A stretch of 38,924 nucleotides of DNA, from NCBI RefSeq assembly GCF_004010195.1, contig NC_057753.1:6229179-6268102 (forward strand), given 5' to 3'. This document shows, piece by piece, positions 1,040-38,324 of the stretch (positions are counted from its first letter, which is position 1; each line of letters starts with the position of its first letter). Under the pieces are notes generated by a model, which was not told where the DNA came from, did not search any database, and saw only the letters and a program-made list of their open reading frames with translations. Made by a program: the position numbers and the translations under genes. The stretch comes from Chiloscyllium plagiosum. Lineage: Eukaryota.

Positions 1040-1233
1040 AAAAGGATTAAGGAAGGGTGAAATCGGCGAAGATCACAGAAAATAAATAAGGTAATATTAA
1101 GAAGCTGGCAGCAATTGTTACAAGGAACATACATAAACAGGAAGATGTGGCTTCATCAAAAAGAAGTGTTTTACGTGTGGAATAAAGGTGGGCATTATGC
1201 CAGCAACTGTCCCAATCAGATTATCAAATGTTA
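1040..1233 (+). mobile_element. Degenerate Gypsy-type gag fragment with CCHC zinc knuckle
   Basis: 1167-1210 reads CFTCG/[frameshift]KGGHYASNC (CX2CX4HX4C). The upstream GGCGAAGAT segment resembles the gag at ~29610. The fragment runs into the gap. Confidence 0.55.
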
Positions 1234-1733
1234 NNNNNNNNNNNNNNNNNNNNNNNNNNNNNNNNNNNNNNNNNNNNNNNNNNNNNNNNNNNNNNNNNNN
1301 NNNNNNNNNNNNNNNNNNNNNNNNNNNNNNNNNNNNNNNNNNNNNNNNNNNNNNNNNNNNNNNNNNNNNNNNNNNNNNNNNNNNNNNNNNNNNNNNNNNN
1401 NNNNNNNNNNNNNNNNNNNNNNNNNNNNNNNNNNNNNNNNNNNNNNNNNNNNNNNNNNNNNNNNNNNNNNNNNNNNNNNNNNNNNNNNNNNNNNNNNNNN
1501 NNNNNNNNNNNNNNNNNNNNNNNNNNNNNNNNNNNNNNNNNNNNNNNNNNNNNNNNNNNNNNNNNNNNNNNNNNNNNNNNNNNNNNNNNNNNNNNNNNNN
1601 NNNNNNNNNNNNNNNNNNNNNNNNNNNNNNNNNNNNNNNNNNNNNNNNNNNNNNNNNNNNNNNNNNNNNNNNNNNNNNNNNNNNNNNNNNNNNNNNNNNN
1701 NNNNNNNNNNNNNNNNNNNNNNNNNNNNNNNNN
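1234..1733. other. Assembly gap (500 N)
   Basis: Run of N. Confidence 1.
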
Positions 1734-1749
1734 CTCTTTACTTTTCACT

Positions 1750-3200
1750 TCGTGCGGTGAATTATGATAGTGGGATCTGATTACCACACAATCTGGGAAA
1801 ATACCAGGATATTTCTGTTTTAAGTCCTCAGTTTCTTGGTCTTCCTTGGGCTTCTCCACAACAAGGGGTGTCACTCCCATCTTCGATCATGCAAAATCAA
1901 TCCCAAGAACAAACTGAATTCCTGGAACGGATACTCTGTCAATCACTTCCACTGTCACTTCCCCAGTCTTAAGTTGTCACTCCAACCTGATCTTAGTTGG
2001 GGAACGCTTTATTTCTCTCCATCTGTTCCATAAATTATCACACTCTCGGGTAACAGATCAGAAAGAGTGCATATTCGCTCATCCCCTTTTATTATCAGCG
2101 ACTGATTAGTTTCTGTATCTCTCAAAACTATAAGTTCCTATCCTTCTTTCCTCCTGTTTTTTCAGAGTAAATTTTACTAACAGAGGCGAATACTTTGTAG
2201 AGGTCAGGTACTATTTCAATCCCCAGCCCTACCTAGACTGTCCACTCTCCTATAGCTCCTCGGCTCTTCTTGGGATGTCCTTTACTACCTTCATTAATGC
2301 CACTGCTTTAGATTCTTTTACCAAATCTTTTCCCACAGCGCCTTCCTTTAACGACCAGCACTGTGACTTTACATGTCCCACCTTCTGGCAGTGAAAACAT
2401 CTTTCGCAGTGTACTTCTGAAACTACCGGCGCTGTAATGTTCTGTGACCTACTCCATTACAGTGAAAACACCTGAGGCCTTTTACGTCTTTTCCACCCAC
2501 TTCCGCTTCTTTTTTATCCTATTGTAAATTCTTACCAGTTTCTCTATTCTTGGATTAGTAGTGTAGGAGCTCCCCGATCTCCCAACTTGCATCTCTCACA
2601 GGTCAAAATTCTGTCCGGAAGCTTGTCTTATGCACCACCATGTACTCATCTGGTAATTCTGCTGCCCTCCTTACATCCTGAAATCGATGTTCCTCTACGT
2701 GCATTCTTACTATCTCTGGAAGTGAGTTTTTAAACTCCTCCAGCAGAATAATCACTCTTAGAGCCTCAAATATCGTATCCATTTTCAAAGCACGCACCCA
2801 TCGATCAAATTGACTGTGTTTAATTCTTTTGATCTCAACGTAAGTCTGACCTGGTTTTTTCCTTAATGTTTCAGAACCACTGCCTATATGCTTCTGGTAC
2901 AAGCTCATAGGCACTTACAATAGCCAGGGTAACCTCTCCATAATCTCTTGACTCCTCCTCTGACAATGCGCCAAATATCTCACTAGCTCTGCCGACCAAT
3001 TTAGTCTGAACTAGCATTACCCATTACCCATTCCGACCACCTCATCTGCCTAGCCAATTTACCGAATGAAATCAAGAAAGCTTCAACATCTTTCCCATCA
3101 AAATGTGCCAGAGCTTTGACATTTTTAAAATTTATATATCACTACCTTCTCTTTTAATCTCTATCCATGTAAACGTGACTTTGCTGACTAACTCGCAATT
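1750..3200 (-). mobile_element. Gmr1-like Gypsy LTR retrotransposon remnant: SCAN-like gag, two zinc knuckles, aspartyl protease
   Basis: ORF 2603..2914 gives RKKPGQTYVE...FDRWVRAL...ILLEEFKNSLPEIVRMHVEE...AAELPDEY. Knuckles: CFHCNGVGHRTLQR (~2470-2429) and CFHCQKVGHVKSQC (2399-2358). Protease motif LIVLRDTETNQSLI (~2134-2092). Post-protease motif GIFPDCVVIRS (~1810-1775). Many stops and frameshifts. Confidence 0.88.
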
Positions 3201-3974: not shown

Positions 3975-6850
3975 AATATAGGTGCAGGAGTAGGCCATTC
4001 TGCCCTTCGAGCCTGCACCACCTTTCAATATGATCATGGCTGATCAACCTTAATCAGTATCCTGTTCCTGCCTTACCTCTATAACCCTTGATTCCACTAA
4101 CATTGAGAGCTCTATCCAACAATTTTTTAAATGAATCCAGAGACTGGGCCTCCACCACCCTCTGGGGCAGAGCATTCCACACAGCCACCACTCTCTGGGT
4201 GAAGAAGTTTCTCCTCATCTCTGTCTTAAATGGTCTACCCCGTATTTTTAAGCTGTGTCCTCTGGTTCGGCACTCACCCATCAGTTGAAACATGTTTCCT
4301 GTCTCCAGAGTGTCCAATCCTTTAGTAATCTTATATGTCTCAATCAGATCCCCTCTCGGTCTTCTAAACTCAAGGGTATACAAGCCCAGTCGCTCCAGTC
4401 TTTCAGCGTAAGGTAATCCCGCCATTCCAGGAATTGACCTCGTGAACAGACGCTGCACTCCCTCAATAGCCAGAATGTCTTTCCTCATATTTGGAGACCA
4501 GAACTGCACACAGTACTCCAGGTGCGGTCTCACGAGGACTTTGTACAGCTGCAGAAGAACCTCTTTGCTTCTATACTCAATCCCTCTTGTTATGAAGGCC
4601 AGCATGCTATTAGCCTTCTTCACTGCCTGCTTTACCTGCATGCTTATCCTCATTGACCGGTATACAAGAGCACCCAGATCTCTTTGTACTGCCCCTTTAC
4701 CTAAATTGATTCCATTGAGGTAGTAATCTGCCTTCCTGTTCTTGCCATCAAAGTGAATAACCATACATTTATCCACATTAAACTGCATCTGCCATGCATC
4801 TGACCACTCACATAATCTGTCCAGGTTACCCTGTAATCTCCTAACATTCTCCTCACATTTCACCCTGCCACCCAACTTAATATCATCAGCAAATTTGCTA
4901 ATGTTATTATTAATACCATCTTCTATATCATTAACATATATTGTAAAAAGCTGCCCTCCCGGCACTGATCCCTGTGGTACCCTACTGGTCACTACCTGCC
5001 ATTCCGAAATGGAGCCTGTTATCACTATTCTTTGTTTGCTATCAGCCAACCAACTTTCAATCCAAGTTAGTACTTTGCCCCCAATACCATGCACCCTAAA
5101 TCTGCTCACTAAACTCCTATGCAGGACTTTATCAAAAGCTTTCTGAAAGTCCAGATACAGTACATCTACTGGATCTCCCTCGTCCAGCTTCAGAGTTACA
5201 TCCTGAAAAAATTCCAGAAGATTAGTCAAGCATGATTTCCACTTCATAAATCCATGCTGACTCTGACCTATCCTGTTACTACTATCCAGATGTGTCGTAA
5301 TTTCATCATTTATAATATCCTCGAGCATCTTTCCCACCACTGAGGTCAGACTAACTGGTCTATAATTTCCTGCTTTCTCTCTCCCACCTTTCTTAAAAAG
5401 TGGTACAACATTAGCTACCCTCCAATCAGCAGGAACTGATCCCGAATCTATCGACCTCTGGAAAATAATCACCAATGCATCCACGATTTATCGAGCCACC
5501 TCCTTCAGTACCCTGGGATGGAGACCATCAGGCCCCGGGGGCTTATCAACCTTCAGACCTAGCAGTCTCTCCAACACCAATTCCTGACAAATATAAATTC
5601 CCTTACGTTCAGGTCCTTCAGCCTCTGTTACCTCAGGGAGATTGCTTGTGTCTTCCCCAGTGAACACAGATCTGAAGTACCAATTCAATTCTTCTGCCAT
5701 TTCTTTGTTCCCAGTAATATATTCCCCCGTTTCTGTCTTCAAGGGCCCAATTTTAGTCTGAACCATTTTTTTTGCCTTTTGCATACCGAAAAAAGCTTTT
5801 GCTATCCTCCTTTATATTTTTGGCCAGTTTACCTTCGTACCTCATTTTTTCTCTGCGTATTTCCTCCTTCGTAATCCTCTGTTGTTCTTTAAAAGGTTCT
5901 CAGTCCACCGTTTTCCCACTTATCTTTGCTATGTTGCACTTTTTCTCTTTTAACTTTATATGTTTCTCAACTTCCCTCGTCAGCCACGGCCACCCATGCC
6001 TCCTCCTAGGATCTTTCTTCCTTCTGCATTATACACAGAGAGATATGCTATTGTTCCTCCACTGTCATCCCCGCTAAGGTATTGCACCATTGAACATTGG
6101 CCAGCTCCTCCCTCATAGGTCCATAGTTCCCTTTATTCAACAGAAATATTGTCACTTCCGATTGTACCCTCTCCCCCTCAAATTGCAGATTGAAGCTTCT
6201 TGTATTATGGTCACTACCTCCCAATGGCTCGTTCATTTCGAGGTCCCGGATCAATTCTGGTTCGTTGAACAATACCAGATCCAGAAATGCCTTTTCCCTC
6301 GTAGGCTCCAGCACCAGCTGTTCTAAGAATCCATCTCGGAGGCACTCCACAAAGTCTCTTTCTTGAAGTCCAATACCGTTCAGATTCTCCCAGTATACCT
6401 GCATGTTGAAATCCCCGATAACAACTGCAGTAACATCTTTTCGACAGGCCAATTTCAGCTCCTGATTCAACTTACATCCGACATCCAGACTACTGTTTGC
6501 GAGTCTGTAGATAACTCCCAGGAAGGTCTTTTTACGCTAAGAATTTCTCAGCTCTATCCATAGTGACACTACATCCCCTGATTCTAGGTCCCCCCGTGCA
6601 AGGGACCCAATATCATCCCTTACCAACATGGCCACCCCACCCCCTCTGCCCGTCAGTCTGTCCTTACGATAGCACGTGTAGCCTTGAATATTCATTTCCC
6701 AGGCCCTGTCCACTTGAAGCCACGTCTCAGTTATCCCCACAATATCGTATCTGTCAATTACCAAAAGAGCCTCAAACTCATCCATCTTATTTCAAATGCT
6801 TCGTGCATTCATGTATAGTATTTTTAATTTGTTACTACCCTCAACCGTCC
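3975..6850 (-). mobile_element. CR1 LINE with near-complete but disrupted ORF2 (APE endonuclease + RT)
   Basis: Endonuclease start KLKILYMNARSI* (~6830-6795), then GITETWL, GGGVA, IGDFN and GGSDHN in ORFs 6537..6785 and 6048..6470; linker 5488..5784; RT ORF 4054..5484 (YLDFQKAFDKV, VPQGSV, KFADD); CR1 3'UTR at ~3975-4050. Confidence 0.96.
4054..5484 (-). pseudogene. CR1 ORF2 reverse-transcriptase portion (476 aa open frame)
   Basis: NYRPVSLTSVVGK, QHGFMK, LDFQKAFDKV, RVPQGSVPG, SKFADD, VRPHLEYCVQFW. Stops separate it from the endonuclease, so it is not a full ORF2. Confidence 0.9.
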
Positions 6851-11299: not shown

Positions 11300-13635
11300 A
11301 ATTAAAAATCTAATCCGTGGAACATCCAGCAACCATTCCTCCACCTGTGATATCCAAGTCTCCTTAATGGTCACAACATAAAAGTTCCAAGTATTGATCC
11401 ATGCTCTGAATTCATCACCCTTGTTCCTCTTGCATTAAATCTTGCATTAAAATAGACACAAATCAACGCATCACACTGGCTGTACTTTTGCAATATCAAG
11501 TACCAATTCCTCCTCACAGACTCTGTGCGAGCTGTATCTGGCTGTTGACTGCCCCTTCCATCATCTGATCCGTAGCTCAGGTTACCACCTTCCTGCCAAC
11601 ATAGCTTCAACGATCCTGAAGACCCCTAGCACATCTATGGAACAAGATTTTGTTACTGCTCCAGTTCAGATGTTAGCAGTCTTTATTCTCCAGTTCCACC
11701 GCCAGCAAAAAGTATCCTAATCGTCCACATATCTGAAGCCCTACCTCCTACGCTGGGCTTTTAGTATTTTAGTGTAGTCACAATAAAAAAAAGTTTATCC
11801 CAGAAACTGAGAAACATTGCGATTGATGTTAAAGGTTGACACATGAAAAAAATCGAACAACATATGAATCCGGAGCAGAATAAAACCACTTTAACCTTAT
11901 CATCCTTCTTAATTGTTAAACACGATCATGGGCATTCTTATAATTGGCCTAATTCCACTTTTATGTCAGAATTATTGTAATCTCATCACCACACATACTT
12001 ATTTACACATTTTAAAATCAATTCTGAGTCAGTCACGAGTTTAGTCAAAGGCAAAACAGCGATTGTTCTTCTGGTGTAGAGTTCCTAAGCTTGTAGTAAA
12101 CTGGTAAAAACTGTTAACCTTCAAATATGACATGACTGGGTCGCCCCTTTAGGCAGAAATCACATCCATTTATTTTAACATCGTCCTGGAAGAGAAATAT
12201 CCTTTCAGCTCCCAACCTGCCAATATCTTCAGAATCTTTAAAACTACTCCTTTATATGACTTAATACCAATATTAACCGGATCCTGAGTACCTTGACAAT
12301 GCAAATCAGTCATGAAATTTTTAATAATCCTACATAATGCAAAGTTCTATGGAGATAGCAGTTAAGTTTAATAACATGTTCGAATTTCTTGTTTCAATAT
12401 GAAGTACTTGCAATCAATAATTCAAGTTGGAACATATTTAGTGGAACAAACAGTCAAGGAACAACATTGACAAGGCATAATAAAATAACCATTCACAGAA
12501 GACAAAACGAGAGAAAGGTTATCCCTTTAGAAACTTAAAATAAACTTGACTTATAAATTCGCGCTGAATACATTTGATTATAATGAGTTCACCAAATAAT
12601 TACAGTCCCGATACAAAAAAATCTCCAGTTCCAATGTGCGAACATTTCTTTTTTTGGCGGAATTGTAGCTTTGAGTTGCCATCACAACATACTTCACACC
12701 GGTTATGTCCATTTTAGTGAGTTAACGTTATGATCTTGACAGTGCAATTGTTCTCCAGTCTTTAGTTTGAATTAGGATATATTTCCTCTCCCGATGGCGA
12801 TCACCGCGTCATATTCGGCTCAGTAGCTGACAGAGTGACAAACTTTCTCTGCTGTGTTGGCAACACCAGATCATAGTGCGGTAGATGCTGAAAGTCGCCC
12901 TTTGTGAACACGGATTTTCTCTACCATTTTGAGGATATGATCTTCTCAATGTCTAAACCACTTTGACTTCCCACGCCATTGAATTCGTCGACAATTTCCA
13001 GCCCCATTTGGAAATCATAGTATTTTTTCTAAGGATGTCATATTAATGTTTTCAGAACTTGGGCGCCACCCTCCAACCCAACAACTCAACAAGCCATAAG
13101 TTACACTTTTTGAGCAGGTGGAAATGCCAATCATATTACTGAATCATGCTGACTGAAGTGAGACCAAGAGTTGGCTTCTCTGTCATTATGTCTTATTATT
13201 TTCACGTTGACAATTCCATCATTCTGATTACTGACACGAACTGTGTAGTTCACAATTTGGAATCATGGGTGTCTCTTAAATGTAATGCAAGAGAATCAGT
13301 CTTAGTATCTATGGCATTAGTTGATTGTATTATAAAATTCATTACAATACGATATGACAAAAAGATAATTGATTTCACGGAGGGTGGTCTCCAAATTCCA
13401 TTGCCCCTAGGCCAGCCTTGAAGAGTATGGCGTGGCAATCATTCTAATTGTTTTTCGTCCAGTCCAATCTAAATCAAACCCTTACCATCTCACACAATTT
13501 CCAACGATTCGCCTGTCTTTGTCAAGTCTGTGTTGAGAGTTTGGAGCTCATAGTTTACTGGTGTATGGAAAACACAGAAATTAATAACTGACTACTCCCA
13601 GTTGATTATTTTTTCAAATAAATGAAAAGGGAATT

Positions 13636-14513
13636 TTATGTAACCAAAAATTTCACTGCGTTGGTGAACTTCGCTCTGAACTTGGACTGTGTTGCTGCAT
13701 AAATAAAGGTGTTTGTACAGCAACTTAAATTCCGCAACATAATTCCAACTTGTTGAAATATATATTCAGAAAAATAGTAACTATAGGGATCAATTCCTAA
13801 ATCTTGGTAATAAAAGAATTCAATAACATTCACCAACCACAGAAGTATGAAGCTGCCAGATACGCAGAAGAGTAAAATCATAGACTTTCTTCTGCTCTCC
13901 ATCTCTGGATCACTGTCATTCTTTCCCTTGTTCCGACATTTCAGTCCTTTACGAACCTGACTGACAGTTATGATGTGCCTGATTGTCAGAGCATTGACCA
14001 GCAGAATTAAAGCAAATGGAATCAGTGGTGTCATAATCTTAACAAACCAGTCAAATCCCAACCAGCCAACTTCGGTATAAAATGTTTGCTTATCAATGCA
14101 TCCCCATGGTACATTGTTGACTATCTCTCCAGGTTCCTGAGTGAAATAAAATGGAATGTTTTTTAAAAGCAGCACGATGCTTGTCGTTGCAAGAACCACA
14201 GCTGCAGCTTTTTCAGTGCAATATTTTGTTTTAAACTTCTGGCAACAAATAGCCACAAATCTATCAAAAGAGAAAATGATTGTAAACCACACAGAACAGT
14301 CTATGGCTCCACCTCGCAGGACCTTGCAAAGACTACAGATTGGTGTGATGTCCAAAAAACACACAGGGAAATAATAAGTGTTGATCTGGTTGAGTATGAC
14401 CTCTGTGATAATGACCAGTAGATCTGCTATTGCCATTGCCAACAGGTAACGAGAGGTGCAGTTGGAGAGGCCACACTTTCCACGAGAGAGGATCAAGATT
14501 GACACTAAATTAA
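13636..14513 (-). CDS. Exon 2 of a class A (rhodopsin-like) GPCR, GPR139/GPR142-like (second half of TM1 to C-terminus)
   Basis: Open frame with hydrophobic helices: YLLAMAIADLL (TM2), PICSL...SFDRFVAICC (TM3), ECL2 VPWGC, TPLIPFALILLVN (TM5), SGSFILLW (TM6), SCCTNTFIY (TM7), helix 8 SKFR. Acceptor TTGCAG|TT AAT TTA GTG at 14514/14513; stop TAA 13638-13636. Confidence 0.93.
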
Positions 14514-14654
14514 CTGCAAGGTAGTAAAGGGAAATGAGACTGAGAATTATTGATCAATGAACCTGTGTGTCTCACTAAACTAGTATGAAATGTCAAGATT
14601 GCACTTAAAAATGATGGGACAGAGTTGGGTAAGAAACTAAAATGTCAAATTCCA

Positions 14655-14999
14655 TCACAGATCTCTGGAATCCCTACATTGTGGAAACAGGCCAGTTGGC
14701 CGAACAAATCCACTCCGAAGAATAATCCACCGAGACCCAATACCCTACTCTATTACTCCGCATTGATCCCCAACTAATGCAGCTAAGCGACAGATGTTTG
14801 ATCACTTTGGGCACTTTAGCATTGTCAATTCATCTGACCTGCACGTCTTTGGATTGTGAGAGGAAACTGGAACACCCAGAGAAACACACAGACACGGGAA
14901 GTATGTGCAAACACTGCACAGATAGTTGCCGGAGCCTGGAATGAAACTCAGAATACTGGCGCTGTGAGGTAGTAGTGCTTACTAGTGATCTCCCGTACC
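14655..14999 (-). mobile_element. HE1-type SINE
   Basis: The reverse complement follows the same layout as 10983-11299 (AGCACTACTACCTCACAGCGCCAG head, CTGTGCAGTGTTTGCAC core, GCCTGTTTCCACAATGTAGGGATTC end). Confidence 0.85.
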
Positions 15000-15369
15000 T
15001 ACCTGCAAGTAAAGCTCCCAACGTGCGTTTATGTGTTTAATGAACTGTGAAAGTTATCCTCGAGACAGTTATTTATAGGGGGCTGCTTGGCAATTTAAAC
15101 ACATCAAGTAGTCTTAAAGTCTATGATTTAATCACATTTGTAGGTTTATACATGACAACAATGGCTGCCACATTACAACACACAAAATATACAGATAGTG
15201 TTGGGGTGAATAATTTGGGTCACGAGCATTGATGCTCACTACCTAAAAACTCCTGTTCAGTACAAAAACACGCTTATCTTTACAGAAACATGTTACGTTC
15301 TTGTCTGTCCTTCAAGTCCTTGCGAAGGAGAAGGGAAGCAGCTATATTAATGAAACGAATGCACATTAA

Positions 15370-15995
15370 CCATCCGTACCATGCTATCACTTTTATTAAC
15401 AGGGGATTCAGTATCAGAGCCATGAGGATTCGCTGCAACTCAATAAAACCCTGGTTATACCACACTTGGAGAATTGTGTCCAGTTCTGGTCGCCTCATCA
15501 CAAGACGTATGCAGATGCACTAGAGAGGAAGCAAAGAAGATTTACCAGGATGCTGTCTGGATTGGAGGACATGACTTGCAAATAAAGTTTGAGTGAGCTA
15601 GGACTTTTCACCCTGGAGAGAAGAAGAAAGGTAGCTGACTTGATTGAGGCATGCAAGTTAATTAAAGTCATAGATGTAGTAGATAGCCAGAGACTTTTCC
15701 AAGGGGCAGAAATTGCAATCACGAGCAATCATAATTTTCAGGATACTGGAGGAAGGCATAGGGGTGATGTGAATGGCCAATTCTTTATGCAGAGGACGGT
15801 GGGTGCGTGGAATGAACTGCCAGCGGTGATAGTAGACTCAGAGTCATGAGGTACATTTGAGCGACTGCAGGACAAGCATATTGATGACAAAAAATTGAGT
15901 AGTGGGTAGGTCAGGATAACAGTGCATTATGATAAAAGCTTGGCACAACATCGTGGGCTGAATGGACTGTATTGTGTTGTACTGTTCTTTGTTCC
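15370..15995 (+). mobile_element. CR1 LINE 3' fragment
   Basis: AITFINRG..., LGLFTLERRR...DLIEACKLIK, FFMQRTVGAWNELP; tail GTACTGTTCTTTGTTCCATA. Confidence 0.88.
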
Positions 15996-16071
15996 ATATC
16001 TTGTTGCTACAATCACAGCTACAGCGTTCTTTATCCATTGTTTGCTGACATCGCCTTACACATAGCTTCAA

Positions 16072-16260
16072 AGATTTGCAACTTAGGTGAATCGGCCATT
16101 TTCAATTGCGTAACGTGTTCAGGGAATTGTAAGTTACGTGCAATAGGATAAATGTTAAATAATATGGAAGGTGTCTGGGTCTATGTGGGTTGGTGTTTAG
16201 ATGGTCAGCATGGACTTGATGGGCCAACTGTCTTGTTTCCACACTGTAGAGGTTCTATGA
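16072..16260 (+). mobile_element. HE1-related SINE, 3' half
   Basis: TTAGGTGAATCGGCCAT...GGACTTGATGGGCCAACTGTCTTGTTTCCACACTGTAGAGGTTCTATGA parallels the 3' half of the SINE at 10983. Confidence 0.7.
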
Positions 16261-16296
16261 ATAAGGGGAAAATGAAAGAAAAGTAAAACATAAATC

Positions 16297-17378
16297 ATAG
16301 AACATAGAACAGTACAGCACAGAACAGGCCCTTCAGACCACGATGTTGTGCCGACCACTGATCCTCATGTATTTACCCTCAAATGTCTGTGACCATACGC
16401 ATGTCCAGGAATCTCTTAAATGTCCCCAATGACCCTGCCTCCACAACTGCTGGTGGCAACGCATTCCATGCTCTCACAACTATCTGTGTAAAGAACCCGC
16501 CTCTGACATTCCCTGTATACTTTCCTCCAACCAGCTTAAAACTATGATGCCTCGTGTTAGTCATTTCTGCCCTGGGAAATAGTCTCTGGCTATCGACTCT
16601 ATCTATGCCTCGCATTTTTTCTATACCTCAATTAGGTCCCCTCTCCTCCTCATTTTCTCCAATGAAAAATGTCCAAGCTCAGTCAACCTCTCCTCATAAG
16701 ATAAGCCCTCCAATCCAGGCAGCATCCTGGTAAACCTCCTCTGAACCCGGTCCAAGGCATCCACATTTTCTTATAATAGTGAGACCAGAACTGGACGCAG
16801 TCTTCCAAGTGCGGTCTAACCAAAGTCTTATAGAGCTGCAACAAGAGCTCACGACTCTTAAACTCAATACCCTTGTTAATGAAAGCCAAAAACACCATAT
16901 GCTTTCTTCACACCCCTGTCCACTTGGGTGGCCATTTTAAGGGATCCCTTTGTTCCTCCACACTGCCAAGAATCCTATCCTTAATCCTGTACACAGCTAT
17001 CAAATTCGACCTTCCAAAGTGCATCACCTCGCATTTATCTAGCTTGAACTCCATCTGCCACCTCTCAGCCTATCTTTGCATCCTGTCAATGTCCCGCTGC
17101 AGCCGACAACAGCCCTCTATACTGTCAACGACAGCTCCAGCCTTTGTGTCATCTGCAAACTTGCTGACCCATCCTTCAATCCCCTCATCCAAGTCATTAA
17201 TAAAAATTGCAAACAATAGAGGCCCAAGGACAGAGCCCTGTGGAACACCACTCACCACAGACTTCCAGGCAGAATATTTTCCTTCTACTAACACTCGCTG
17301 TCTTCTGTTGGCCAGCCAATTCTGTATCCAGACAGCTATATTCGCCTGACTTCCATTCCTCTTGATCTTCTGAATGAG
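16297..17378 (-). mobile_element. CR1 LINE, 5'-truncated (RT core to tail)
   Basis: GVPQGSVLGPLLF, SKFADD (17070..17294), VRPHLEDCVQFW (16683..16898), FFTQIVVRAWNALP; (CATAGAA)n tail at 16297. Confidence 0.93.
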
Positions 17379-17879
17379 TACATGATGATGAACAAAACAA
17401 AACAGCCAATACCTTCACCTCAGAAAAAATTGTAAAGGTTACATACAGTGGGATCTTTCAGGAAACTCACTGTAAATTTCAATCATATTTCAACTTTGTC
17501 GGTCTGATCGACATAACCTCTCAATGTACCACTGCCATTCTCAAGAAAATGATGTATCTGGCCAACCACTGACCAGACCCTTCAGTAGTTTGGTACCCGT
17601 TTCAGAATTTGGACAGCAAGGGAACAGAATTGGCCCAGGATCAGAAACTTGCCCATTAGGATCCTCGCAGAATTTCCTACCGAATACGCTTGGACACTAG
17701 GCTGAGTTAAATATTTCTCGATAGCCGATCCAAATTATAGGATCTGTAATCCCTCACGTTAAATAAATCATCATGTGTTCAAAAATCCTTCGAGATTAAA
17801 CCATTTTCATGGGACTGGATGATAACTTCATCTGGAATCCCGCAGTTTGAAATTCTAAATTGCTCATGGATAAGGAAAT

Positions 17880-19015
17880 CCTCAACATCAGTACCCAATA
17901 CTTACTCTCTTACTATAGTACTAAATGAATTCACGTTTGGTGGCCACATCGCACTCTAACTTTCTTTACAATTTTGTTGAGAACACCATCTTAATAAAGT
18001 GGTTCTCAAGCAACGTTGAGACTGAGTGCATGAACGAGATAGACAGCTTAGTGACATGGTGTAAGGACAGCAATCTCTTCATTAACGAAGGAGCTGATAA
18101 TCTTCTACAGGACACACCCCTTTCTGAAATATGGATGCTGAGATAAAGACAATGAAGAATTCCTATGAGTACCGATCACCAACAATCTGTGCAAGTTCTT
18201 TCACTTCGAAGTTACACTGAAGAAAAGCAGACACACAGATGTATCTACTCCCTAAGAAGGCTAAGACTTTTTAACATGTGCATAATGAGTCTTACCATTT
18301 TTGTGTAGTTGAACCACGGAAGGCATCCTATTCAGATATATCACAGCTTGTAATCCCCACTATTTTTTGCAAGATTGTGAAAATTACAACGAGTTCTGAG
18401 CTTCGACCAGACCGTCATGCAAATCAGTCTTCCATCTACAGATTCAGCCTACAGTTATGGCTACCTCAGGAAAATAACCAATACAATCACTGACCCCTCC
18501 CACTTCCCATATATTCGTTTAGAAACGTTACAAAGCAAATTCCCACGGATTTATTGGCAACATCTTCAACAACGTATGAAACTTTTGAACGAACATTCAA
18601 ATACGAAAGTTGACCTCTCTTTAAATCTTTCCTTTAGGTGTAACACAATCTTCTTTATTTTACTCTGTTAGCCTAATTAAGTTGAATTGAATTTATTGTC
18701 ACGTGCATTGAGGCAGAAGGAAAAGCTTTGTCTTGCGAGCAATACAGGCAGATCACAGAGTAAAGTAACATAGATAAGTAAATATTAGGTAAATAGCGGC
18801 ATCAGCAAAAACACAGGTACAGGCGAATTATAAGAGTTTGTGCGTCCATTGAGTATTTTAATAACAGTCGAGCAGAATCTGTTTCAAAACTGGCTGATGC
18901 GTGTGTTTAGGCTTCTGTATCTTCAATTATATTCTGCCTGAATAGCACACAATGATTTTCACTGTATTTCAGTACATGTGACAGTAATTAATTTGATCAA
19001 ATAAATTAAACCAAA
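17880..19015 (+). mobile_element. Rex1/Babar-type LINE 3' portion, containing an inverted 3'-end copy at ~18680-18925
   Basis: ORF 17925..18146 (SHSNFLYNFVENT...NVETECMNEIDSLVTWCKDSNLFIN) matches the Rex1 RT signature (SNxIxKFADDT...EIxxLVxWCxxNNLxLN). Tail TTTTCACTGTATTTCAGTACATGTGACA at ~18956-18984; reverse copy TTTATTGTCACGTGCATTGAGGCAG at ~18692. Confidence 0.7.
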
Positions 19016-19029
19016 TTTGATAAGATAAT

Positions 19030-19620
19030 TGGGACAGTATGTTGCGGTTGGACAGGACATGGGTTGAATCACTTCTGAATTGTTGCATTCAGTTCTGGTC
19101 TCCCTGTGATAGAAATGATGTTGAGAAACTTGAAATCGTTCAGAAAAGATTTCAATAATATTGTGAGGCCTGTAGGGTTTGAACAATAGGGAGAGGCTGA
19201 ATAGGGCTGTGTCGATTTTCCTTGGAGTATGTGAAGCTGAGGATTGATATTACAGAGGTTTATAAAATCATGAGGAGCATAGATGCCATGAATAGCACAG
19301 TTTTTTTCCCCCGGGGTTGGAGAGTCCAAAACTAAAGGGAATAATATAATGTGAGAGGGGTAAAACTTAAAAGAACCTAAGCAGCAGCGTTTTCACGCAG
19401 AAGGTGGTGCTTGTATAGAATGAGCTGCCTGAAGACGTAATGGAAACTGGCGCATTTGCAACATTTAAAAGGGAACTATTGGATACATGAATAGGAATGG
19501 TTTAAGGGGAAATGGATCAAAAATAAACTGGCAAATGGGACTACATTTATTTAGGATATCTGATCAGCATGAGCAAATTTAACTGAAAGACATGTTTCCA
19601 TGTTGTACAGCTCTATGAGT
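19030..19620 (+). mobile_element. CR1 LINE 3' fragment (decayed)
   Basis: TTCAGTTCTGGTCTCCCTG (QFWSP), GAGGTTTATAAAATCATGAGG (EVYKIMR), TTTTCACGCAGAAGGTGGTG (FTQKVV), CR1-type 3'UTR. Confidence 0.82.
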
Positions 19621-20699
19621 GTATTTCTACGGACTGACTTGCAATTAGCTGAGAGATAAGAGGCATTTCTTTCTGTGTGCATGAATCTTATTGAATTGCA
19701 ACGCTGTAGAAGAGCATGCCAGATAGCGATGAGCAGAAAACTAACGGAGGCGATACTTCTCTTAACAGTTAAAGTAAGGAAGAACAGGCATGAATTCCAG
19801 AGGTGTGGGCAAAACTGGCATTAGCGCAATAACCGAATCTCCGAGGAAAAGGGCCAGTCCACAATCCAAAGTCACTCCATTGTCGCTATTTTCGATTATG
19901 CTGACTGTCCAAAAACACTAGAGTCTTCGCTATAAACTGAAGTTTTTAATGATTTATGAAATAGTCATTTTTACAAATCATAACATTATCATCATAATGA
20001 CTATTTATTGGAAGGATTTAGGAGATAATGAGAAAAATGGTTAAATTATGTACAATTAACGTGACAATTGAGAGAGACTCAATGTCAATCTTGCAACTTG
20101 AAATGAGTGATTCAGCAAAGTGTTCAACTAGTCTGATCATTGTTGTTTCCCATACCTCCGAAGATTCTTTTCTAAGGACCGATTGTAGTTACTAGCCAAT
20201 AGCAAGTCCATTGAAATATCCCTTCATTTAGAAGACATATTGTATCTCGTGGAAAATAGATGGAGTACATTTTAAGGATAGTCTTACTCTTTGCACGGGG
20301 TTTACTGATGTTTGTCGTGACTAAAGAATGGGCATCAGTACCAATGCCAACGCAGCAGTGAGAAAGAGGAGGAAAATACATGATTGGTGCACGTTCTACC
20401 TGGATGTGGCCGATGATTCCGAAAATTATGTAATTATAGTTCTTTTCTTGAGGCTGATGTTAAAGCATCAATATCGGAAACAGCACTGGAATGGTCAAAC
20501 ATCTTGATAAGCAATGTGAAAGATAATCCAACACCTTGTATTTGTTAAGATATTTGTGAACAGCTGGTGTTCTTTGGCGAATCAGAGCAAAACAAAATGT
20601 ATTACGACTCAGATTCTTAAAAAAAAAGTAGATTTGTTGGGGGTAAGAGCAGAACAAGTTGCCGTGTAACAGTAGGCCAATAGGGGAATAAAACGTGAA

Positions 20700-21030
20700 C
20701 ACTTTTAGGGTACATTTCAATTTAACTATCAAACAGGAATGAAAACTTTGCATTGACAGTATTGTCACCACAAACAGAATGTCGACAGGAAGCAACAGGA
20801 AAGCCATTCAACTAATTTCTAATGAACAGAATATCCATTAACTACAAAAATATGGAGAACGTTATTCTTGTATTTAATCAGAAGGCAAAACAAGTTCAAT
20901 CGACTATGCACTCGTTAAAGTAACTAAATTGATGGGAAAATAATTAAGTGAAACATATATAAAAAGTGAAAGGCCGGAAGTATAACATAAGTAATACATG
21001 TGCGGGATGTGGTTCAGAAGCATAACAATA
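20700..21030 (+). mobile_element. Possible highly decayed APE endonuclease of a non-CR1 LINE
   Basis: TTAGGGTACATTTCAAT (GDFN-like, ~20705), EGKTSSIDYALVK (20881-20919) and GGTTCAGAAGCATAAC (GSDHN-like with frameshift, 21011-21026), in the right order and spacing. Confidence 0.35.
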
Positions 21031-23525
21031 CTTGTTCAAATATATGCAGATATTAGAATAACAGTTTGAATAATATTATAAATTGAAAACTAGCTGAGTA
21101 AGATAGTTGCAGAATCCTATGATTGAGTCAATTATTTGTAAGAAGTTCTACACTCCTCGAAGCCTTACTCGAACGTCAGATTTCAGAGCAAATAGAACAT
21201 GTGGCATAAAGGGCATCAACGTTTTTAATATTAAAATGAAAGAAATGACAGTGAAGTGTGGCATCAACTTTAAAATAATTTATCAGATGATTGCTGGAAT
21301 GTGTGAATCATTTTTCGACAAGGAATAGTGATAACTCAGCGTTCTTTAAATTTTTAAGTAAACACACCGGGGCCAAGAAATTGTGTTTGTTTCAAAATTG
21401 TTGGCAGCACCGATTTTGTAGTACACTCAATCAGATAAAGAATTCCACAAAATAACTGAAAACATTTGTATTAATTAATGTTCGCTCCAATTTGATGCCA
21501 TTATGAAATTTTGCTGATTTTTTTTTTAATGTTCGTACTGATTTGTTGTTGCATATAATTAATATTCAGCTTTATATATAATTAAAATTAATGTACATAA
21601 TTTTCGGGATCTGTGTTTTTATGTTTCTGGGGCAAATTTCACAAAGGTGAGGACAGATTGAGATAGGAGAATAACCGTTTTGAAAAAGAAAACTGCGCAA
21701 ACATTGGTATAAGCTGGTATTTAACTAAAACTCCAATCAGAATTCTGCAATGAAGTACCCACAGCCGTACATTTGACCTGAATAACGGCATGTCAAACAT
21801 GTAAAAACTCGTGAACAATAGATTCTCGCTGTTGACTTGAGGTAATAATCAATGCGACAAAAAACATTATTCCGCTGCAAGAATATGCATCTGGTTTCTA
21901 AATGCATGAGTTTATGTATCGTTTTCGTGAGTCGAATGACACTTCTTCCACAATTATTGCTGAGAGAAAGGAAGCAGATGCGTTCCGGATAGCGTTTCCT
22001 ACTTCACTCATCAGAATACATCACAAGAAATATCGAATCAAAGAGAAACAGCGTTTGTAATGTATGAAAATATAGGGCTGATATGTTACAAGTCGATACT
22101 CTTAGTAGGGTTACTGTCATGGGGAACACACATCAGTCAGTAATAACTGTGAAATAACAATTTTTTTTAATCTGAAACCATACTGATTGGTAAAGATGTT
22201 GGTGTAAGCAAATAAACAAAGAATAACTGGCAAGCATTTTCTGATTTTGGAAACGTTGCACTTTTGTGTTTTGCCTTTCTGCAAAAAGCATGCCCGTGAT
22301 TATACACAGAATTCACAGGCAGTGCATACAAGACTGCCTTATGTGTTCTTACCAAATGTGAGGCTAAATTATGGTGCATCGATAACATCCTGTATTATCA
22401 TACCATGTGTCATCATATGTCATTGATAATAACGAACAGATAGATTTCAGACCATTATTCTTGGCCAGCAAACGTCTTCAATCTATCCAAAGTTACACTA
22501 TACTTGTTAGGTATCTCAACATGTTTAAACTACTAATGGAACTAGTTGTCTCTCATTGCTGTTACGCAGTAAGAACACGAGTGGGCTTTGTCAGTACCAG
22601 AGTGCTATCATCAGGCCAAATAGTCCATCCACACGACATGCGAATGCACAGCTTGTTTTACAATTTTGATTCAGATACGACACAATGTACCTGGCGTTAC
22701 AACTGCGGTTAAAACACCACTAGCTGTTTTTCTCCATCACGGGAACAGCTTTACAGTTTAATTTAGGGCGACTTTTGATCCTTTAATGTGAAATTATTAT
22801 TTTTCTTTTCTGTTCCAGTTAATCAATTCGACAGAAAACCGAGAAACATAAAGATATTTCAGTTTGCACATTCTTTGGCGAAAAAATCCTAAAAGCGCAA
22901 TACTTTTCCCCTTTACATTGTTAAACTCTGAGACAAACGCATGAACTGAAGAGAGAAAAAACCCAAAAATGACAATTAGGTAAAATTAATCATTTGCATA
23001 TCGCGACAGCCACTCAGTACAATTTCATAGTTATAGATCTTCCAAAAAATTATATGTTCACTTGAGTTTTCCACTGCACACTGACCATGCTCAGTAGAAT
23101 TCTACAATGAAGGTTTCTCCCTTCAATATATCAGGATTACTTCAGTAATTAGGGTAGCGATTAAGATAATTTCATGTAAACGTGCTCCACAGATTATAAA
23201 ACAATGCTGACAGTAAGACAGGGTCGCTTAGTTCACAATATAACCATGTTTATAATGGCCTACACTCTCGCTTCTGCCCTACCGTTAGACTCTATGTAGA
23301 TTTCCGCTCATCAGTAAATTCAGGAATGGTTCTCTGGTCAATAACCTACAGCCAGTGTGATCATACTCGAACTCTGATAAACTCTTCCTACTGACAGCTG
23401 ATCCAAAGTCGCATAATTTTTGACAAATGAAATCATTTTTCACTTCAGAGAGCCTGTGTATGCCAGACAACCTGTTACAGGACAATACATACTTTAAAAA
23501 AAAAACATCTATAGTTAACACTTAC

Positions 23526-23592
23526 CAGGAACGCCGATGATGGCAAGAGCTGTATAGAATATTTTATCAATATTGTGAAATGTATCATGCAT
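23526..23592 (-). CDS. Exon 1 of the GPR139-like GPCR (MHDTFHNIDKIFYTALAIIGVP)
   Basis: ATG at 23592-23590, 22 codons + 1 nt, then consensus donor GTAAGT. It supplies the missing first half of TM1 in the phase required by exon 2 (total 945 nt, 314 aa). Confidence 0.88.
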
Positions 23593-23669
23593 TATTAGTA
23601 CTAATTATCAATTCCTTCATGCTGCAAGCATTCTCACTCTGTTATAAACTGTACTTACTAAGAGTCTCT

Positions 23670-23678
23670 AATATATAC
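23670..23678 (-). promoter_or_regulatory. Candidate TATA box of the GPCR gene
   Basis: GTATATATT on the minus strand ~80 nt upstream of the ATG. The position is plausible but the region is AT-rich. Confidence 0.4.
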
Positions 23679-24269
23679 ATTGTGTAATCTCCACGGGACT
23701 GATGAGATTACAAAATCATTCTATTCTGTTTTCCAATAATTGTAATGAGCATATTATGACATTGGGTGCAGACGGTATTATGATAAAATATATTAATATA
23801 CGAGATTGAATTTGAAGTAATCAGTAACTGAACAACTTTACTTATCAAGTAACAAAAAAAATCAATTACGCTTTCAATCAACAATTATCACCTCACTCAA
23901 AGACCATTAGTACCATCCGTCATTTTAGTATTTTTTTCTCATTCAGCAATGACCACGCGATGCAAATTAGAGACTGTCGACCTCATTGCTGTTCTGCTGC
24001 ACTCTGGGATGTGGCTGCCTTCTTTAAAATTGAATATTCGTTTAAATTGTTGAAGAGATTTATTTTTGCCATTATCTATTATACTGTACAAAAAAAACGG
24101 CTTGATTAATTTCACAAGACAAATAATTACAATATCTCTATCTGCTGCACCTCAAATTCGTGATAACAAAAGTGAATGAAGACTCTGCAAAAGTTAATTG
24201 ATGCCTAGGCTCTTATAAATATGGAGCCTTCAACTGACATATAACCGCTTTCCTACTACCAACATATTT

Positions 24270-30128: not shown

Positions 30129-31683
30129 ATAGAACATAGAACAATACGGCACAGAACAGGCCCTTCGGCCCACGATGTTGTGCAGAACTTCTAACTTAGA
30201 TTAAGTACCCATCCATGTAACTATCCAAATGCCGCTTAAAGGTCGCCAATGATTCCGACTCTACCACTCCCACGGGTAGCGCATTCCATGCCCCCACCAC
30301 TCTCTGGGTAAAGAACCCACCCCTGACATCTCCCCTATACCTTCCACCCTTCACCTTAAATTTATGTCCCCTTGTAACACTCTGTTGTACCCGGGGAAAA
30401 AGTTTCTGACTGTCTACTCTATCTATTCCTCTGATCATCTTATAAACCTCTATCAAGTCACCCCTCATCCTTCGCCGTTCCAACGAGAAAAGGCCGAGAA
30501 CTCTCAACCTATCCTCGTACGACTTCCTCTCCATTCCAGGCAACATCCTGGTAAATCTTCTCTGCACCCTCTCCAAAGCTTCCACATCTTTCCTAAAGTG
30601 AGGCAACCAGAACTGCACACAGTACTCCAAATGTGGCCTAACCAAAATTCTGTTGAGTTGCAACATCACTTCATGACTCTTGAATTCAATCCCTCTGCTA
30701 ATGAACGATAATACTCCATAGGCCTTCTTACAAACTCTATCCACCAGAGTGGCAACCTTCAAAGATCTATGTACATAGACCCCAAGATCCCTCTGTTCCT
30801 CCACCTGACTAAGAACCCTACCATTAACCCTGTATTCCGCATTCTTATTTGTTCTTCCAAAATGGACAACCTCACACTTGGCAGGGTTGAACTCCATCTG
30901 CCACTCCTCAGCCCAGCTCTGCATCATATCTAAGTCCCTCTGCAGCCGACAACAGCCCTCCTCACTGTCCACAACTCCACCGATCTTCGTATCATCTGCA
31001 AATTTACTGACCCACCCTTCGACTCCCACATCTAAGTCATTAATAAAAATTAAAAACAGCAGAGGACCCAGAACTGATCCCTGCGGAACTCCAATTGTAA
31101 CTGGGCTCCAGGCTGAGTATTTACCATCTACCACCACTCTCTGCCTTCGACCGGTTAGCCAGTTTTCTATCCAATTGGCCAAATTTCCCTCTATCCCATG
31201 CCTCCTGACTTTCCGCATAAGCCTACCATGGGGAAACTTATCAAATGCCTTACTAAAATCCATGTACACTACATCCACTGCTCTACCCTCATCCACATGC
31301 TTAGTCANNNNNNNNNNNNNNNNNNNNNNNNNNNNNNNNNNNNNNNNNNNNNNNNNNNNNNNNNNNNNNNNNNNNNNNNNNNNNNNNNNNNNNNNNNNNN
31401 NNNNNNNNNNNNNNNNNNNNNNNNNNNNNNNNNNNNNNNNNNNNNNNNNNNNNNNNNNNNNNNNNNNNNNNNNNNNNNNNNNNNNNNNNNNNNNNNNNNN
31501 NNNNNNNNNNNNNNNNNNNNNAAGTACTTGTTCAAGACCTCTCCTATCTCTTCCGACTCAATACACAGTCTCCCACTACTGTCCTTGATCGGACCTACCC
31601 TCGTTCTCGTCATTCTCAGGTTTCTCACATACGCATAACATGCCTTGGGGTTATCCTTGATCCTATCCGCCAACGATTTTTCA
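30129..31683 (-). mobile_element. Young 5'-truncated CR1 LINE inserted in the Gmr1 protease
   Basis: Uninterrupted 366-aa ORF 30196..31296 (YMDFSKAFDK, GVPQGSVLGP, SKFADD); (ATAGAAC)n tail at 30129; linker region 31522-31683 beyond the gap. Confidence 0.95.
31308..31521. other. Assembly gap (214 N)
   Basis: Run of N. Confidence 1.
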
Positions 31684-37666: not shown

Positions 37667-38135
37667 TCACCTGTAATGTGACATGAACCCAAGGTCACGG
37701 TTGAGGCCCTCCCTATGGGTACCGAACTTGGCTATCATCCTCTGCTCGGCCACTTTTCTCTGCTGCCTGTCCCGAAGTCCACCTTGGAAGATGGTCACCC
37801 AAAGGTCCGAGGCTGAATGTCCAGGAGCATTGAAGTGTTCCCCAACTGGGAGGGAGCCCTCCTGTCTTTTGTTTGTTGTGCGGTGCCCATTCATCCGTTG
37901 TCGTTGTCTTTGCTCGGTTTCCCCAATGTACCATGCCTCTGGGCATCCTTGCCTGCAACTTATGAGATAGACAACGTTGGCTGATTCACATGAGTATCTG
38001 CCATGTACATGGTGGGAGGTGTCCCCAAGTGTAATGGTGGTATCTATGTCCACACTCTGACACATCTTGCAGCGCCTAAAGTGACAGGGTTGTATGGAGT
38101 TGTCCTGAGAGCCGGGAAACTTGCTACGAAAATGA
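37667..38135 (-). pseudogene. Penelope GIY-YIG endonuclease domain (open frame, RT missing)
   Basis: VVY...YIG bipartite motif, conserved R, E and GLN motifs, Cys-rich linker. The upstream ATG at 38182 probably lies in flanking DNA. Confidence 0.85.
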
Positions 38136-38324
38136 ACGTGGGATATGGAATTTGCAGAGGTATTATTGCGTTGCTCACTCATTCCGCGTGTGTCAATTTA
38201 TCTTTGGTTCAGTGATTCAATTCATGAGCATTTATGGAAGTTTTGACATTTGTAACATCACAAGAATTATCCCTCTCGACATAAAGTCATTATAAAACTC
38301 ACGTGTTTGAGTCTACAGGATTAC

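What the first reader, a model, noticed from the sequence alone, without database searches (positions are those of the whole stretch)
13636..23592. Intact two-exon GPR139-like receptor with a hidden 67-nt first exon: candidate member of an expanded cartilaginous-fish GPCR family
Seen: exon 1 (23592-23526) and exon 2 (14513-13636) splice in phase to a stop-free 314-aa 7TM protein, while almost all other coding sequence in the window is decayed. Established: mammalian GPR139/GPR142 respond to aromatic L-amino acids, and sharks have very few canonical OR genes. From recollection (unverified), shark annotations contain many 'probable GPR139' paralogues. Inference: this is a divergent paralogue rather than the GPR139 orthologue. 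Its compact build (N-terminus of ~10 aa, short C-tail) and TE-rich setting resemble chemoreceptor clusters. It could belong to an uncharacterised amino-acid or peptide chemosensory repertoire and is the best candidate for an undescribed system here.
Basis: partly seen in the sequence, partly recalled or inferred. Interest (0 to 1): 0.7.

Follow-up and report, generated by a model that had tools for sequence, protein, structure and literature searches.

The report
Shark receptor family with diversified pockets
This intact shark gene belongs to a large, apparently undescribed family of cell-surface receptors in sharks, rays and chimaeras whose ligand-binding pockets vary from copy to copy, as in smell and taste receptors, but where the receptors are made and what they detect is still unknown.

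Summary
The gene model is confirmed: a 67-nt exon 1 and an 878-nt exon 2 splice in phase to a 314-aa class A GPCR. Exon 1 scores 49.0 against -5.6 for the next of 439 candidates. It is not GPR139: about 20% identity, and 1 of 4 Trp/Phe-critical residues kept. It belongs to a family named in 21 chondrichthyan species, with 2335 hits and at least 99 horn-shark clusters. Its sister group is an apparently single-copy gene of amphibians, sturgeon and reedfish. The 14 pocket positions are the most variable transmembrane class in sharks (2.63 bits against 1.78 and 0.99) and the least variable in amphibians (0.11). That points to a diversified ligand-detecting repertoire. A chemosensory role is my best reading (about 0.5); immune or barrier sensing is the main rival. 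No spliced read was seen and the tissue is unknown. Ten paper searches found no description of the expansion. This scan noted the family before in other genomes (e1-7813824, e1-7939187).

The parts
23526..23592 (-). Coding exon 1 (67 nt): ATG, about 10-aa N-terminus and most of TM1; ends in phase 1
   Evidence: Best of 439 candidates, 49.0 vs -5.6. 53 of 120 top homologues have an exon-1-like N-terminus of 30 aa or less. In-frame TAA at 23607-23605 upstream (read).
14514..23525 (-). GT-AG intron, 9012 nt, holding LINE-type retrotransposon remnants (about 16300-17430) and other repeats
   Evidence: Donor and acceptor; repeat families; repeat-level read depth.
13636..14513 (-). Coding exon 2 (878 nt): end of TM1 through TM7 and helix 8, with stop TAA at 13638-13636
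   Evidence: Family HMM i-E 6.9e-154. The same stop position is found in Hemiscyllium P0002 and Scyliorhinus P0005.
23668..23698 (-). Possible core promoter: TATA-like TATATATTAG (23677-23668) and an Ebf/O-E-like site (23698-23688); weak, function not shown
   Evidence: Read. The Ebf-like pattern was recalled and chosen after seeing the site; it occurs once in the window, and 35 of 100 shuffles also give a match.
12174..12372 (-). Nearest candidate polyadenylation signals (hexamers starting at 12372, 12325, 12174), implying a 3' UTR of about 1.3 kb; inferred
   Evidence: no read support for the 3' end.

Best explanation
The gene is an intact member of a chondrichthyan-expanded family of GPR139-related class A GPCRs that works as a diversified detector array. 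Each paralogue keeps the same activation and G-protein face and carries its own ligand pocket. Shown: gene structure, fold, family membership, expansion, the sister gene and pocket-focused variability. Inferred: a water-soluble ligand (peptide, amino-acid derivative or other polar metabolite) binds a polar pocket (E2.57, R3.32, D3.37, N6.51, E6.54, Y6.58, E7.31) under an ECL2 hairpin held by the C3.25-ECL2 disulfide. It signals through W6.48/F6.44, D2.50, DRF and N7.49/Y7.53 to Gq/11 or Go, then PLC and a TRP channel. My best guess for the cells is external chemosensory cells (olfactory microvillous neurons, taste or solitary chemosensory cells). Odds by step: family member 0.97, diversified ligand repertoire 0.85, external chemosensation 0.5.
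For: Expansion: 2335 of 3341 candidates pass E 0.001, and all 120 listed carry shark names. 73 of those 120 are horn shark, and 99 horn-shark 90%-clusters appear across; 29 of the 120 share one contig length, suggesting a cluster. 18 of 20 divergent representatives looked up are named sharks, skates, rays or chimaera; 2 show no organism. Tree: 43 chondrichthyan rows form one side of a branch (SH-aLRT 93), sister to 8 amphibian, sturgeon and reedfish rows (99) (quick tree). Pocket: 14 transmembrane positions taken from the GPR139 ligand contacts (PMC8807744) have mean entropy 2.63 bits in 242 members, against 1.78 for 70 other outer-half and 0.99 for 111 inner-half positions (p 0.00024). In 22 amphibian sequences the order reverses: 0.11, 0.34, 0.53. 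Horn shark alone gives 2.09, 1.26, 0.66 (p 0.00034), with 93 distinct pocket signatures in 98 proteins. In 56 independent close pairs the pocket differs at 200 of 779 sites against 711 of 3768 other outer-half sites. This copy departs from 2 of 64 near-invariant columns, both conservatively (family median 1). Cartilaginous fishes have only 43.8 (20-62) known olfactory receptor genes (PMC10869828 passages).
Against: Nothing here shows where the gene or family is expressed. Laying two single-cell RNA runs (about 2 and 6 in 100 read, tissue not given) showed roughly one read on exon 2, none in the exon-1 bin and no joint at 14513/23526 among those shown. Pocket diversity marks any multi-ligand family, including immune and itch receptors (established knowledge), so it does not pick a tissue. 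No dN/dS was possible, so positive selection is not shown. In catshark no GPCR was among the top 50 'brain & olfactory epithelium' genes (PMC11979771 section 11), though sparse receptors would not be expected there. The sequence set is biased to near relatives of the query and to horn shark, and is clustered at 90%. True GPR139 and GPR142 are missing from the tree. The window shows no cluster.
Confidence: 0.5

Rival explanations
1. Immune or barrier-surveillance repertoire: the paralogues detect microbial, parasite or damage-derived peptides on leukocytes, mast-like cells, skin or sensory afferents, working like FPRs or MRGPRs.
For: Pocket hypervariability and birth-and-death expansion fit this equally well. 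The next PDB neighbours of the family profile after GPR139 include CysLT1 and chemokine receptors besides neurotensin and ghrelin receptors, all far weaker (55 bits or less vs 73).
Against: The closest characterised relatives, GPR139 and GPR142, are neuronal and enteroendocrine (PMC7318219 passages). No immune expression data were obtained.
Confidence: 0.25
2. Internal nutrient or neuropeptide sensors: an expanded set of brain or gut receptors keeping a GPR139/GPR142-like role with aromatic amino acids or endogenous peptides.
For: GPR139 is the best structural and profile match. The wider clade includes FMRFamide, MIP and proctolin peptide receptors (PMC12208981 and PMC8514136 passages).
Against: The Trp/Phe-critical residues are lost. 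221 distinct pocket signatures in 242 members would need an equally large endogenous ligand set, which I do not know to exist (recalled, not searched). The amphibian sister gene, with F3x33, W6x48 and N7x38 in 22 of 22, looks like the fixed-ligand form.
Confidence: 0.12
3. Largely non-adaptive expansion by repeat-driven duplication; many copies are redundant or decaying and this one may be silent.
For: Many database models are broken or have odd N-termini (60 of 120 lack an exon-1-like start). The locus is repeat-rich. No spliced read was seen.
Against: The frame is intact over 945 nt and 62 of 64 near-invariant columns are kept. The subfamily-specific stop is shared with a catshark protein 70% identical. 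The pocket diverges faster than other outer-half positions, the reverse of the amphibian pattern. Of three exon-2 variants listed in a DNA-like run, two are synonymous and one moves to the family consensus (206 rows not shown).
Confidence: 0.1
4. It is the 1:1 shark orthologue of GPR139 or GPR142.
For: 117 of the 120 top hits are auto-named GPR139; two exons as in GPR139.
Against: About 20% identity to human GPR139 against 70% for zebrafish. It has many much closer paralogues and nests deep in the shark clade.
Confidence: 0.01

Closest known systems
GPR139 (PDB 7vug, 9m42) and GPR142
   Same: Best match by sequence, profile and fold. Two-exon gene. W6.48 kept, and no proline at 7.50 in this protein.
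   Different: About 20% identity. F3x33, H5x43, R6x51 and N7x38 are not kept. P6.50 is present in only 16 of 242 members. C3.25 and the ECL2 cysteine are present in 234 of 242, where human GPR139 aligns an aspartate at 3.25. Multi-copy rather than one conserved orthologue.
Unnamed 'probable GPR139' gene of amphibians, sturgeon and reedfish (e.g. Pleurodeles XP_069092602)
   Same: Sister group of the shark family (SH-aLRT 99); shares the D-x-E-x-x-R motif before TM6 and the C3.25/ECL2 pair.
   Different: One cluster per named species, nearly invariant pocket (4 signatures in 22), 23-29% identity to this protein. It may be one of the 'NMOGPR' or 'Orphan 139-like' rows tabulated in PMC5207463; I could not establish which.
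Vertebrate chemoreceptor families OR, TAAR, V1R/ORA, V2R/OlfC, T1R, T2R
   Same: Works like them in pattern: lineage-specific expansion, compact 7TM build (for the class A-type families), variable pocket on a conserved signalling face.
   Different: Not a member of any: only Pfam 7tm_1 is hit and the nearest relatives are GPR139-clade receptors. The three shark or vertebrate repertoire papers searched do not mention it.
FPR and MRGPR expansions; invertebrate Srw/FMRFamide-receptor-like expansions (roles recalled)
   Same: Peptide-type class A receptors recruited into multi-ligand repertoires. Atlas neighbours include FMRFamide-receptor-like clusters where 17-69% of members carry 7TM_GPCR_Srw.
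   Different: Different branches of class A; no Srw hit for this protein itself.

Membership tests
Class A (rhodopsin-like) GPCR | 7tm_1 domain above cut-off and seven-helix fold | tested here: met
   61.2 bits vs cut-off 30.5; model pLDDT 86; TM-score 0.72 to GPR139.
Class A (rhodopsin-like) GPCR | N1.50, D2.50, D/ERY, W6.48, P5.50, N7.49/Y7.53, C3.25-ECL2 cysteines | tested here: met
   N24, D53, DRF 106-108, W248, P188, N290/Y294, C82/C161; P6.50 and P7.50 absent.
GPR139 orthologue | High conservation across vertebrates (70% human-zebrafish) | tested here: not met
   20-21% identity vs 70% (PMC7318219).
GPR139 orthologue | Trp/Phe-critical residues F3x33, H5x43, W6x48, N7x38 | tested here: not met
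   G, V, W, I; residue list from the PMC5430874 abstract.
GPR139/GPR142 clade (broad) | Closer to GPR139 than to other solved receptors | tested here: met
   Family profile 73.3 bits vs 55.4 for the next receptor; top Foldseek hit.
GPR139/GPR142 clade (broad) | Groups with true GPR139/GPR142 in a tree; same intron position | not testable with these tools
   No true GPR139/142 protein was returned as a usable id. Two exons are stated; the matching intron position is only recalled.
Chondrichthyan GPR139-related expansion | Nests within the chondrichthyan clade and keeps its conserved columns | tested here: met
   With P0002 (100) and P0005 (99) inside the 43-row clade; 62 of 64 near-invariant columns kept.
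Chemosensory receptor repertoire (functional class) | Large lineage-specific paralogue number | tested here: met
   At least 99 horn-shark clusters; this genome's own count not available.
Chemosensory receptor repertoire (functional class) | Variability concentrated in the ligand pocket | tested here: met
Chemosensory receptor repertoire (functional class) | Positive selection (dN/dS above 1) at pocket codons | not testable with these tools
   Only protein sequences of relatives were available.
Chemosensory receptor repertoire (functional class) | Spliced, sparse expression in sensory cells | tested here: inconclusive
   No junction read in thinly sampled runs of unknown tissue.
Chemosensory receptor repertoire (functional class) | Activation by external chemicals | not testable with these tools
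   Needs a functional assay.
OR, TAAR, V1R, V2R, T1R, T2R | Family-specific profile or nearest-relative match | tested here: not met
   Only 7tm_1 at E 0.001; none among the 60 PDB rows shown.

The most novel reading that the evidence does not exclude
A further vertebrate chemoreceptor family, recruited from the GPR139/FMRFamide-receptor branch. It expanded before sharks and chimaeras split and in some species outnumbers all known olfactory receptor genes together. It is expressed sparsely in chemosensory cells and would overturn the view that cartilaginous fishes smell with the smallest vertebrate repertoire. Its single-copy sister in amphibians, sturgeon and reedfish preserves the ancestral fixed-ligand receptor.
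Probability: 0.4. Interest if true: 0.92.

Novelty: new variant of a known kind. Interest (0 to 1): 0.72.

Why it matters
Cartilaginous fishes are reported to have the smallest olfactory receptor repertoire among vertebrates (mean 43.8 genes) despite many sensory neurons (PMC10869828). One shark already shows at least 99 members of this family, hidden under the automatic label 'probable GPR139'. If they are chemosensory, that puzzle changes; if immune, they are an unrecognised innate repertoire in the oldest jawed-vertebrate lineage. Existing shark RNA-seq can decide this quickly. The conserved sister gene in Xenopus and axolotl offers a laboratory route to the ancestral ligand.

Tried and rejected
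Whole-genome paralogue count: no genome held. Run search: no RNA holder listed; this is no evidence either way. Read laying (4 of 17 listed runs, likeness 90): X7 laid nothing, so it is no test. X6 gave repeat-derived reads and about one read on exon 2. X1 gave one 133-nt piece on exon 2 with 3 differences, but RNA is only a guess for that run. X2 behaves as DNA; its summed depth over exon 2 (1166 and 9605, against about 5-41 in unique bins) suggests many similar copies, but the tool states it is no copy number. 65 joints were not shown. A second copy or pseudogene in the window: none. The 26-bp satellite upstream of exon 1 reported in e1-7939187: not found here. Structured RNA: 0 Rfam matches. 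The Ebf-like promoter motif is not above chance for the window; PMC5608512 passages gave no letter consensus to test it against. The careful tree did not finish in two runs, so only SH-aLRT support is quoted; a FastTree of 215 rows gave the same sister pairing (0.964). Papers: searches (GPR139 or GPR142 with shark, cartilaginous, expansion, -like) returned 4, 1, 1, 0, 0, 4 and 12 papers, none on this family by listing; one search was swamped by non-GPR139 papers; one search listed 28 general papers; search 28 supplied pocket papers. The supplement of PMC11979771 was too large to read and may hold expression values for these genes. Yun et al. 2015, the likely source of the 'Orphan 139-like' rows, is not held.
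Full report
Observation. Exon 1 (67 nt) ends at a GTAAGT donor, exon 2 (878 nt) follows a pyrimidine tract and AG, and the 945-nt join gives 314 aa without an internal stop. To test exon 1 against chance I scored every phase-1 GT donor with an open 21-codon frame between 14600 and the window end. The profile came from 52 homologue N-termini and left out this gene. The proposed exon scores 49.0 and the next of 439 scores -5.6. Exon 2 is Pfam 7tm_1 and folds confidently (pLDDT 86). No second family copy lies in the window. The other long frames that could be named are retrotransposon pieces (5 of 13 scanned).

It is not GPR139. Human GPR139 is the best PDB match, but weakly: E 1.7e-8 and 20-21% identity by structure. 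True orthologues keep 70% from human to zebrafish (PMC7318219, passages). Mutagenesis names F3x33, H5x43, W6x48 and N7x38 as critical for Trp and Phe (PMC5430874, abstract), and the cryo-EM letter adds R6x51 (PMC8807744, first of three parts). This protein has G, V, W, I and N at these places. Of 242 full-length family members, 18 keep none of the five, 166 keep one, 52 two, 6 three and none more.

The family. 2335 of 3341 candidates passed E 0.001; I saw only the best 120, all named as sharks, 117 of them labelled GPR139. The closest is Hemiscyllium ocellatum P0002 at 87%, whose model starts at residue 49 and so lacks exon 1. By hand count 73 of the 120 are horn shark, and three listings give 99 horn-shark clusters at 50-98% pairwise identity. 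At 50% clustering 582 representatives pass, 111 of them at 1e-30. Of 20 divergent ones looked up, 18 are named sharks, skates, rays or Callorhinchus and 2 show no organism. 21 chondrichthyan species are named across. The two named Callorhinchus rows pair with different elasmobranch rows (100 and 83), so diversification probably began before chimaeras split off (inference). If most of the unseen hits are family members, the average would be near a hundred per annotated genome; I could not check this.

The sister gene. The most informative distant hit was a salamander protein. Searching with it gave 25 hits of 1675 candidates: 20 amphibian clusters, one per named species, 1 sturgeon and 4 chondrichthyan at 32-33%. 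A profile search gave 81 hits among the 8000 candidates scored: 21 amphibian, sturgeon, reedfish, 54 named chondrichthyan and 4 others. No amniote, teleost, lungfish or coelacanth was named, though these word-based searches cannot prove absence. In a 62-row IQ-TREE quick tree the 43 chondrichthyan rows (two without a shown organism) form one group (93), sister to the 8 amphibian and fish rows (99). A separate coelacanth, silverside and two-further-vertebrate lineage and an anchovy row lie outside, then amphioxus. The careful search did not finish, and true GPR139 and GPR142 are absent from the tree.

The pocket test. I fixed 14 transmembrane positions from the published GPR139 ligand contacts, mapped through the PDB alignments; three ECL2 contacts were left out because the alignment is gapped there. 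I had already seen the per-column table when I ran the test, but the set came from the paper. In 242 members (P0002 dropped for lacking its N-terminus) mean entropy is 2.63 bits in the pocket, 1.78 at 70 other outer-half and 0.99 at 111 inner-half positions (p 0.00024). In 22 amphibian sequences it is 0.11, 0.34 and 0.53. Of the 25 most variable transmembrane positions in sharks, 17 are invariant in amphibians, against a background of 48%. Horn shark alone repeats the pattern. Among 56 independent close pairs the pocket differs at 25.7% of sites, other outer-half positions at 18.9% and inner-half positions at 9.4% (Fisher p 2.8e-5, sites not independent). Against P0002 this protein differs at 3 of 14 pocket and 31 of 252 other sites, too few to test. 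The ancestral-type gene therefore guards its pocket while the shark copies vary theirs. This fits diversifying ligand recognition but does not prove positive selection.

Is this copy functional? It keeps 62 of 64 near-invariant columns. Its stop lies 11 residues earlier than in 83 of the top homologues, but at the same place as in P0002 and catshark P0005, which group with it at 99-100. So the short tail is an old subfamily trait, not fresh damage. Expression was not shown: no junction read appeared in thinly sampled runs of unknown tissue.

Mechanism. Shown: structure, family, sister gene and variability pattern. Inferred: a polar ligand binds under a disulfide-held ECL2 hairpin and the conserved inner face couples to a G protein. 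Gq/11 is primary for GPR139, and catshark olfactory neurons are Go- and TRPC2-positive (PMC10116579, passages). I put external chemosensation at 0.5, immune or barrier sensing at 0.25, internal peptide or nutrient sensing at 0.12 and non-adaptive expansion at 0.1.

Literature. Ten searches of the open library found no description of the expansion; most I saw only as listings. Passages searched in PMC10869828, PMC10116579, PMC6368271, PMC11979771 and PMC12294341 do not mention it. A table in PMC5207463 lists 'NMOGPR' and 'Orphan 139-like' with unclear members, so non-mammalian relatives have been noticed in print; the source paper was not held. Subscription journals and one unreadable supplement may bear on novelty. 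Two earlier notes of this scan describe the same family in other genomes; they are unchecked and I do not count them as support.

Verdict. A real, intact gene in a large and apparently undescribed receptor expansion with a chemoreceptor-like signature; tissue and ligand remain open. New variant of a known kind; interest 0.72.

Noticed in passing
Database models P0001-P0120: The small first exon is often missed: 60 of 120 models have an exon-1-like start, 47 another N-terminus, 4 start at exon 2 and 9 do not align at N1.50. Some wrong N-termini (P0053, P0073, P0106) match LINE pieces of this window, and others duplicate exon-2 sequence, suggesting fused tandem copies.
   Followed up: partly
window 23631-23585, minus strand: Two short upstream ORFs: a 4-codon one from 23631 and an 11-codon out-of-frame one from 23620 that overlaps the main ATG (read). 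They could damp translation if they lie in the mRNA.
   Followed up: no
Proteins P0236, P0289-P0308, P0316: Conserved, apparently single-copy orphan GPCR in frogs, salamanders, caecilians, sturgeon and reedfish with S1.50 and N2.50 in amphibians instead of N and D; not found in amniotes or teleosts by two searches.
   Followed up: yes
Proteins P0234, P0235, P0258, P0267 and P0265: Further vertebrate lineages auto-named GPR139 or unnamed (silverside, coelacanth, two UniRef entries; anchovy separately) that are not GPR139: the coelacanth protein scores only 70 bits to human GPR139.
   Followed up: partly
window 4054-6536 and 30196-31305, minus strand: LINE-type elements with long open reverse-transcriptase frames (477 aa and at least 369 aa) and an endonuclease piece, so not all other coding sequence is heavily decayed.
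   Followed up: partly
window 1061-2914: SCAN-domain fragment (2606-2914, 25.4 bits, below cut-off) and a zinc-knuckle-like stretch beside an assembly gap; probably LTR-retrotransposon gag remnants (label recalled).
   Followed up: partly
window 37667-38197, minus strand: 176-aa open frame that looks by eye like a Penelope-type GIY-YIG endonuclease piece (recalled); no Pfam hit at E 0.01.
   Followed up: partly
window 1234-1733 and 31308-31521: Two assembly gaps of 500 and 214 N; neither touches the gene.
   Followed up: no
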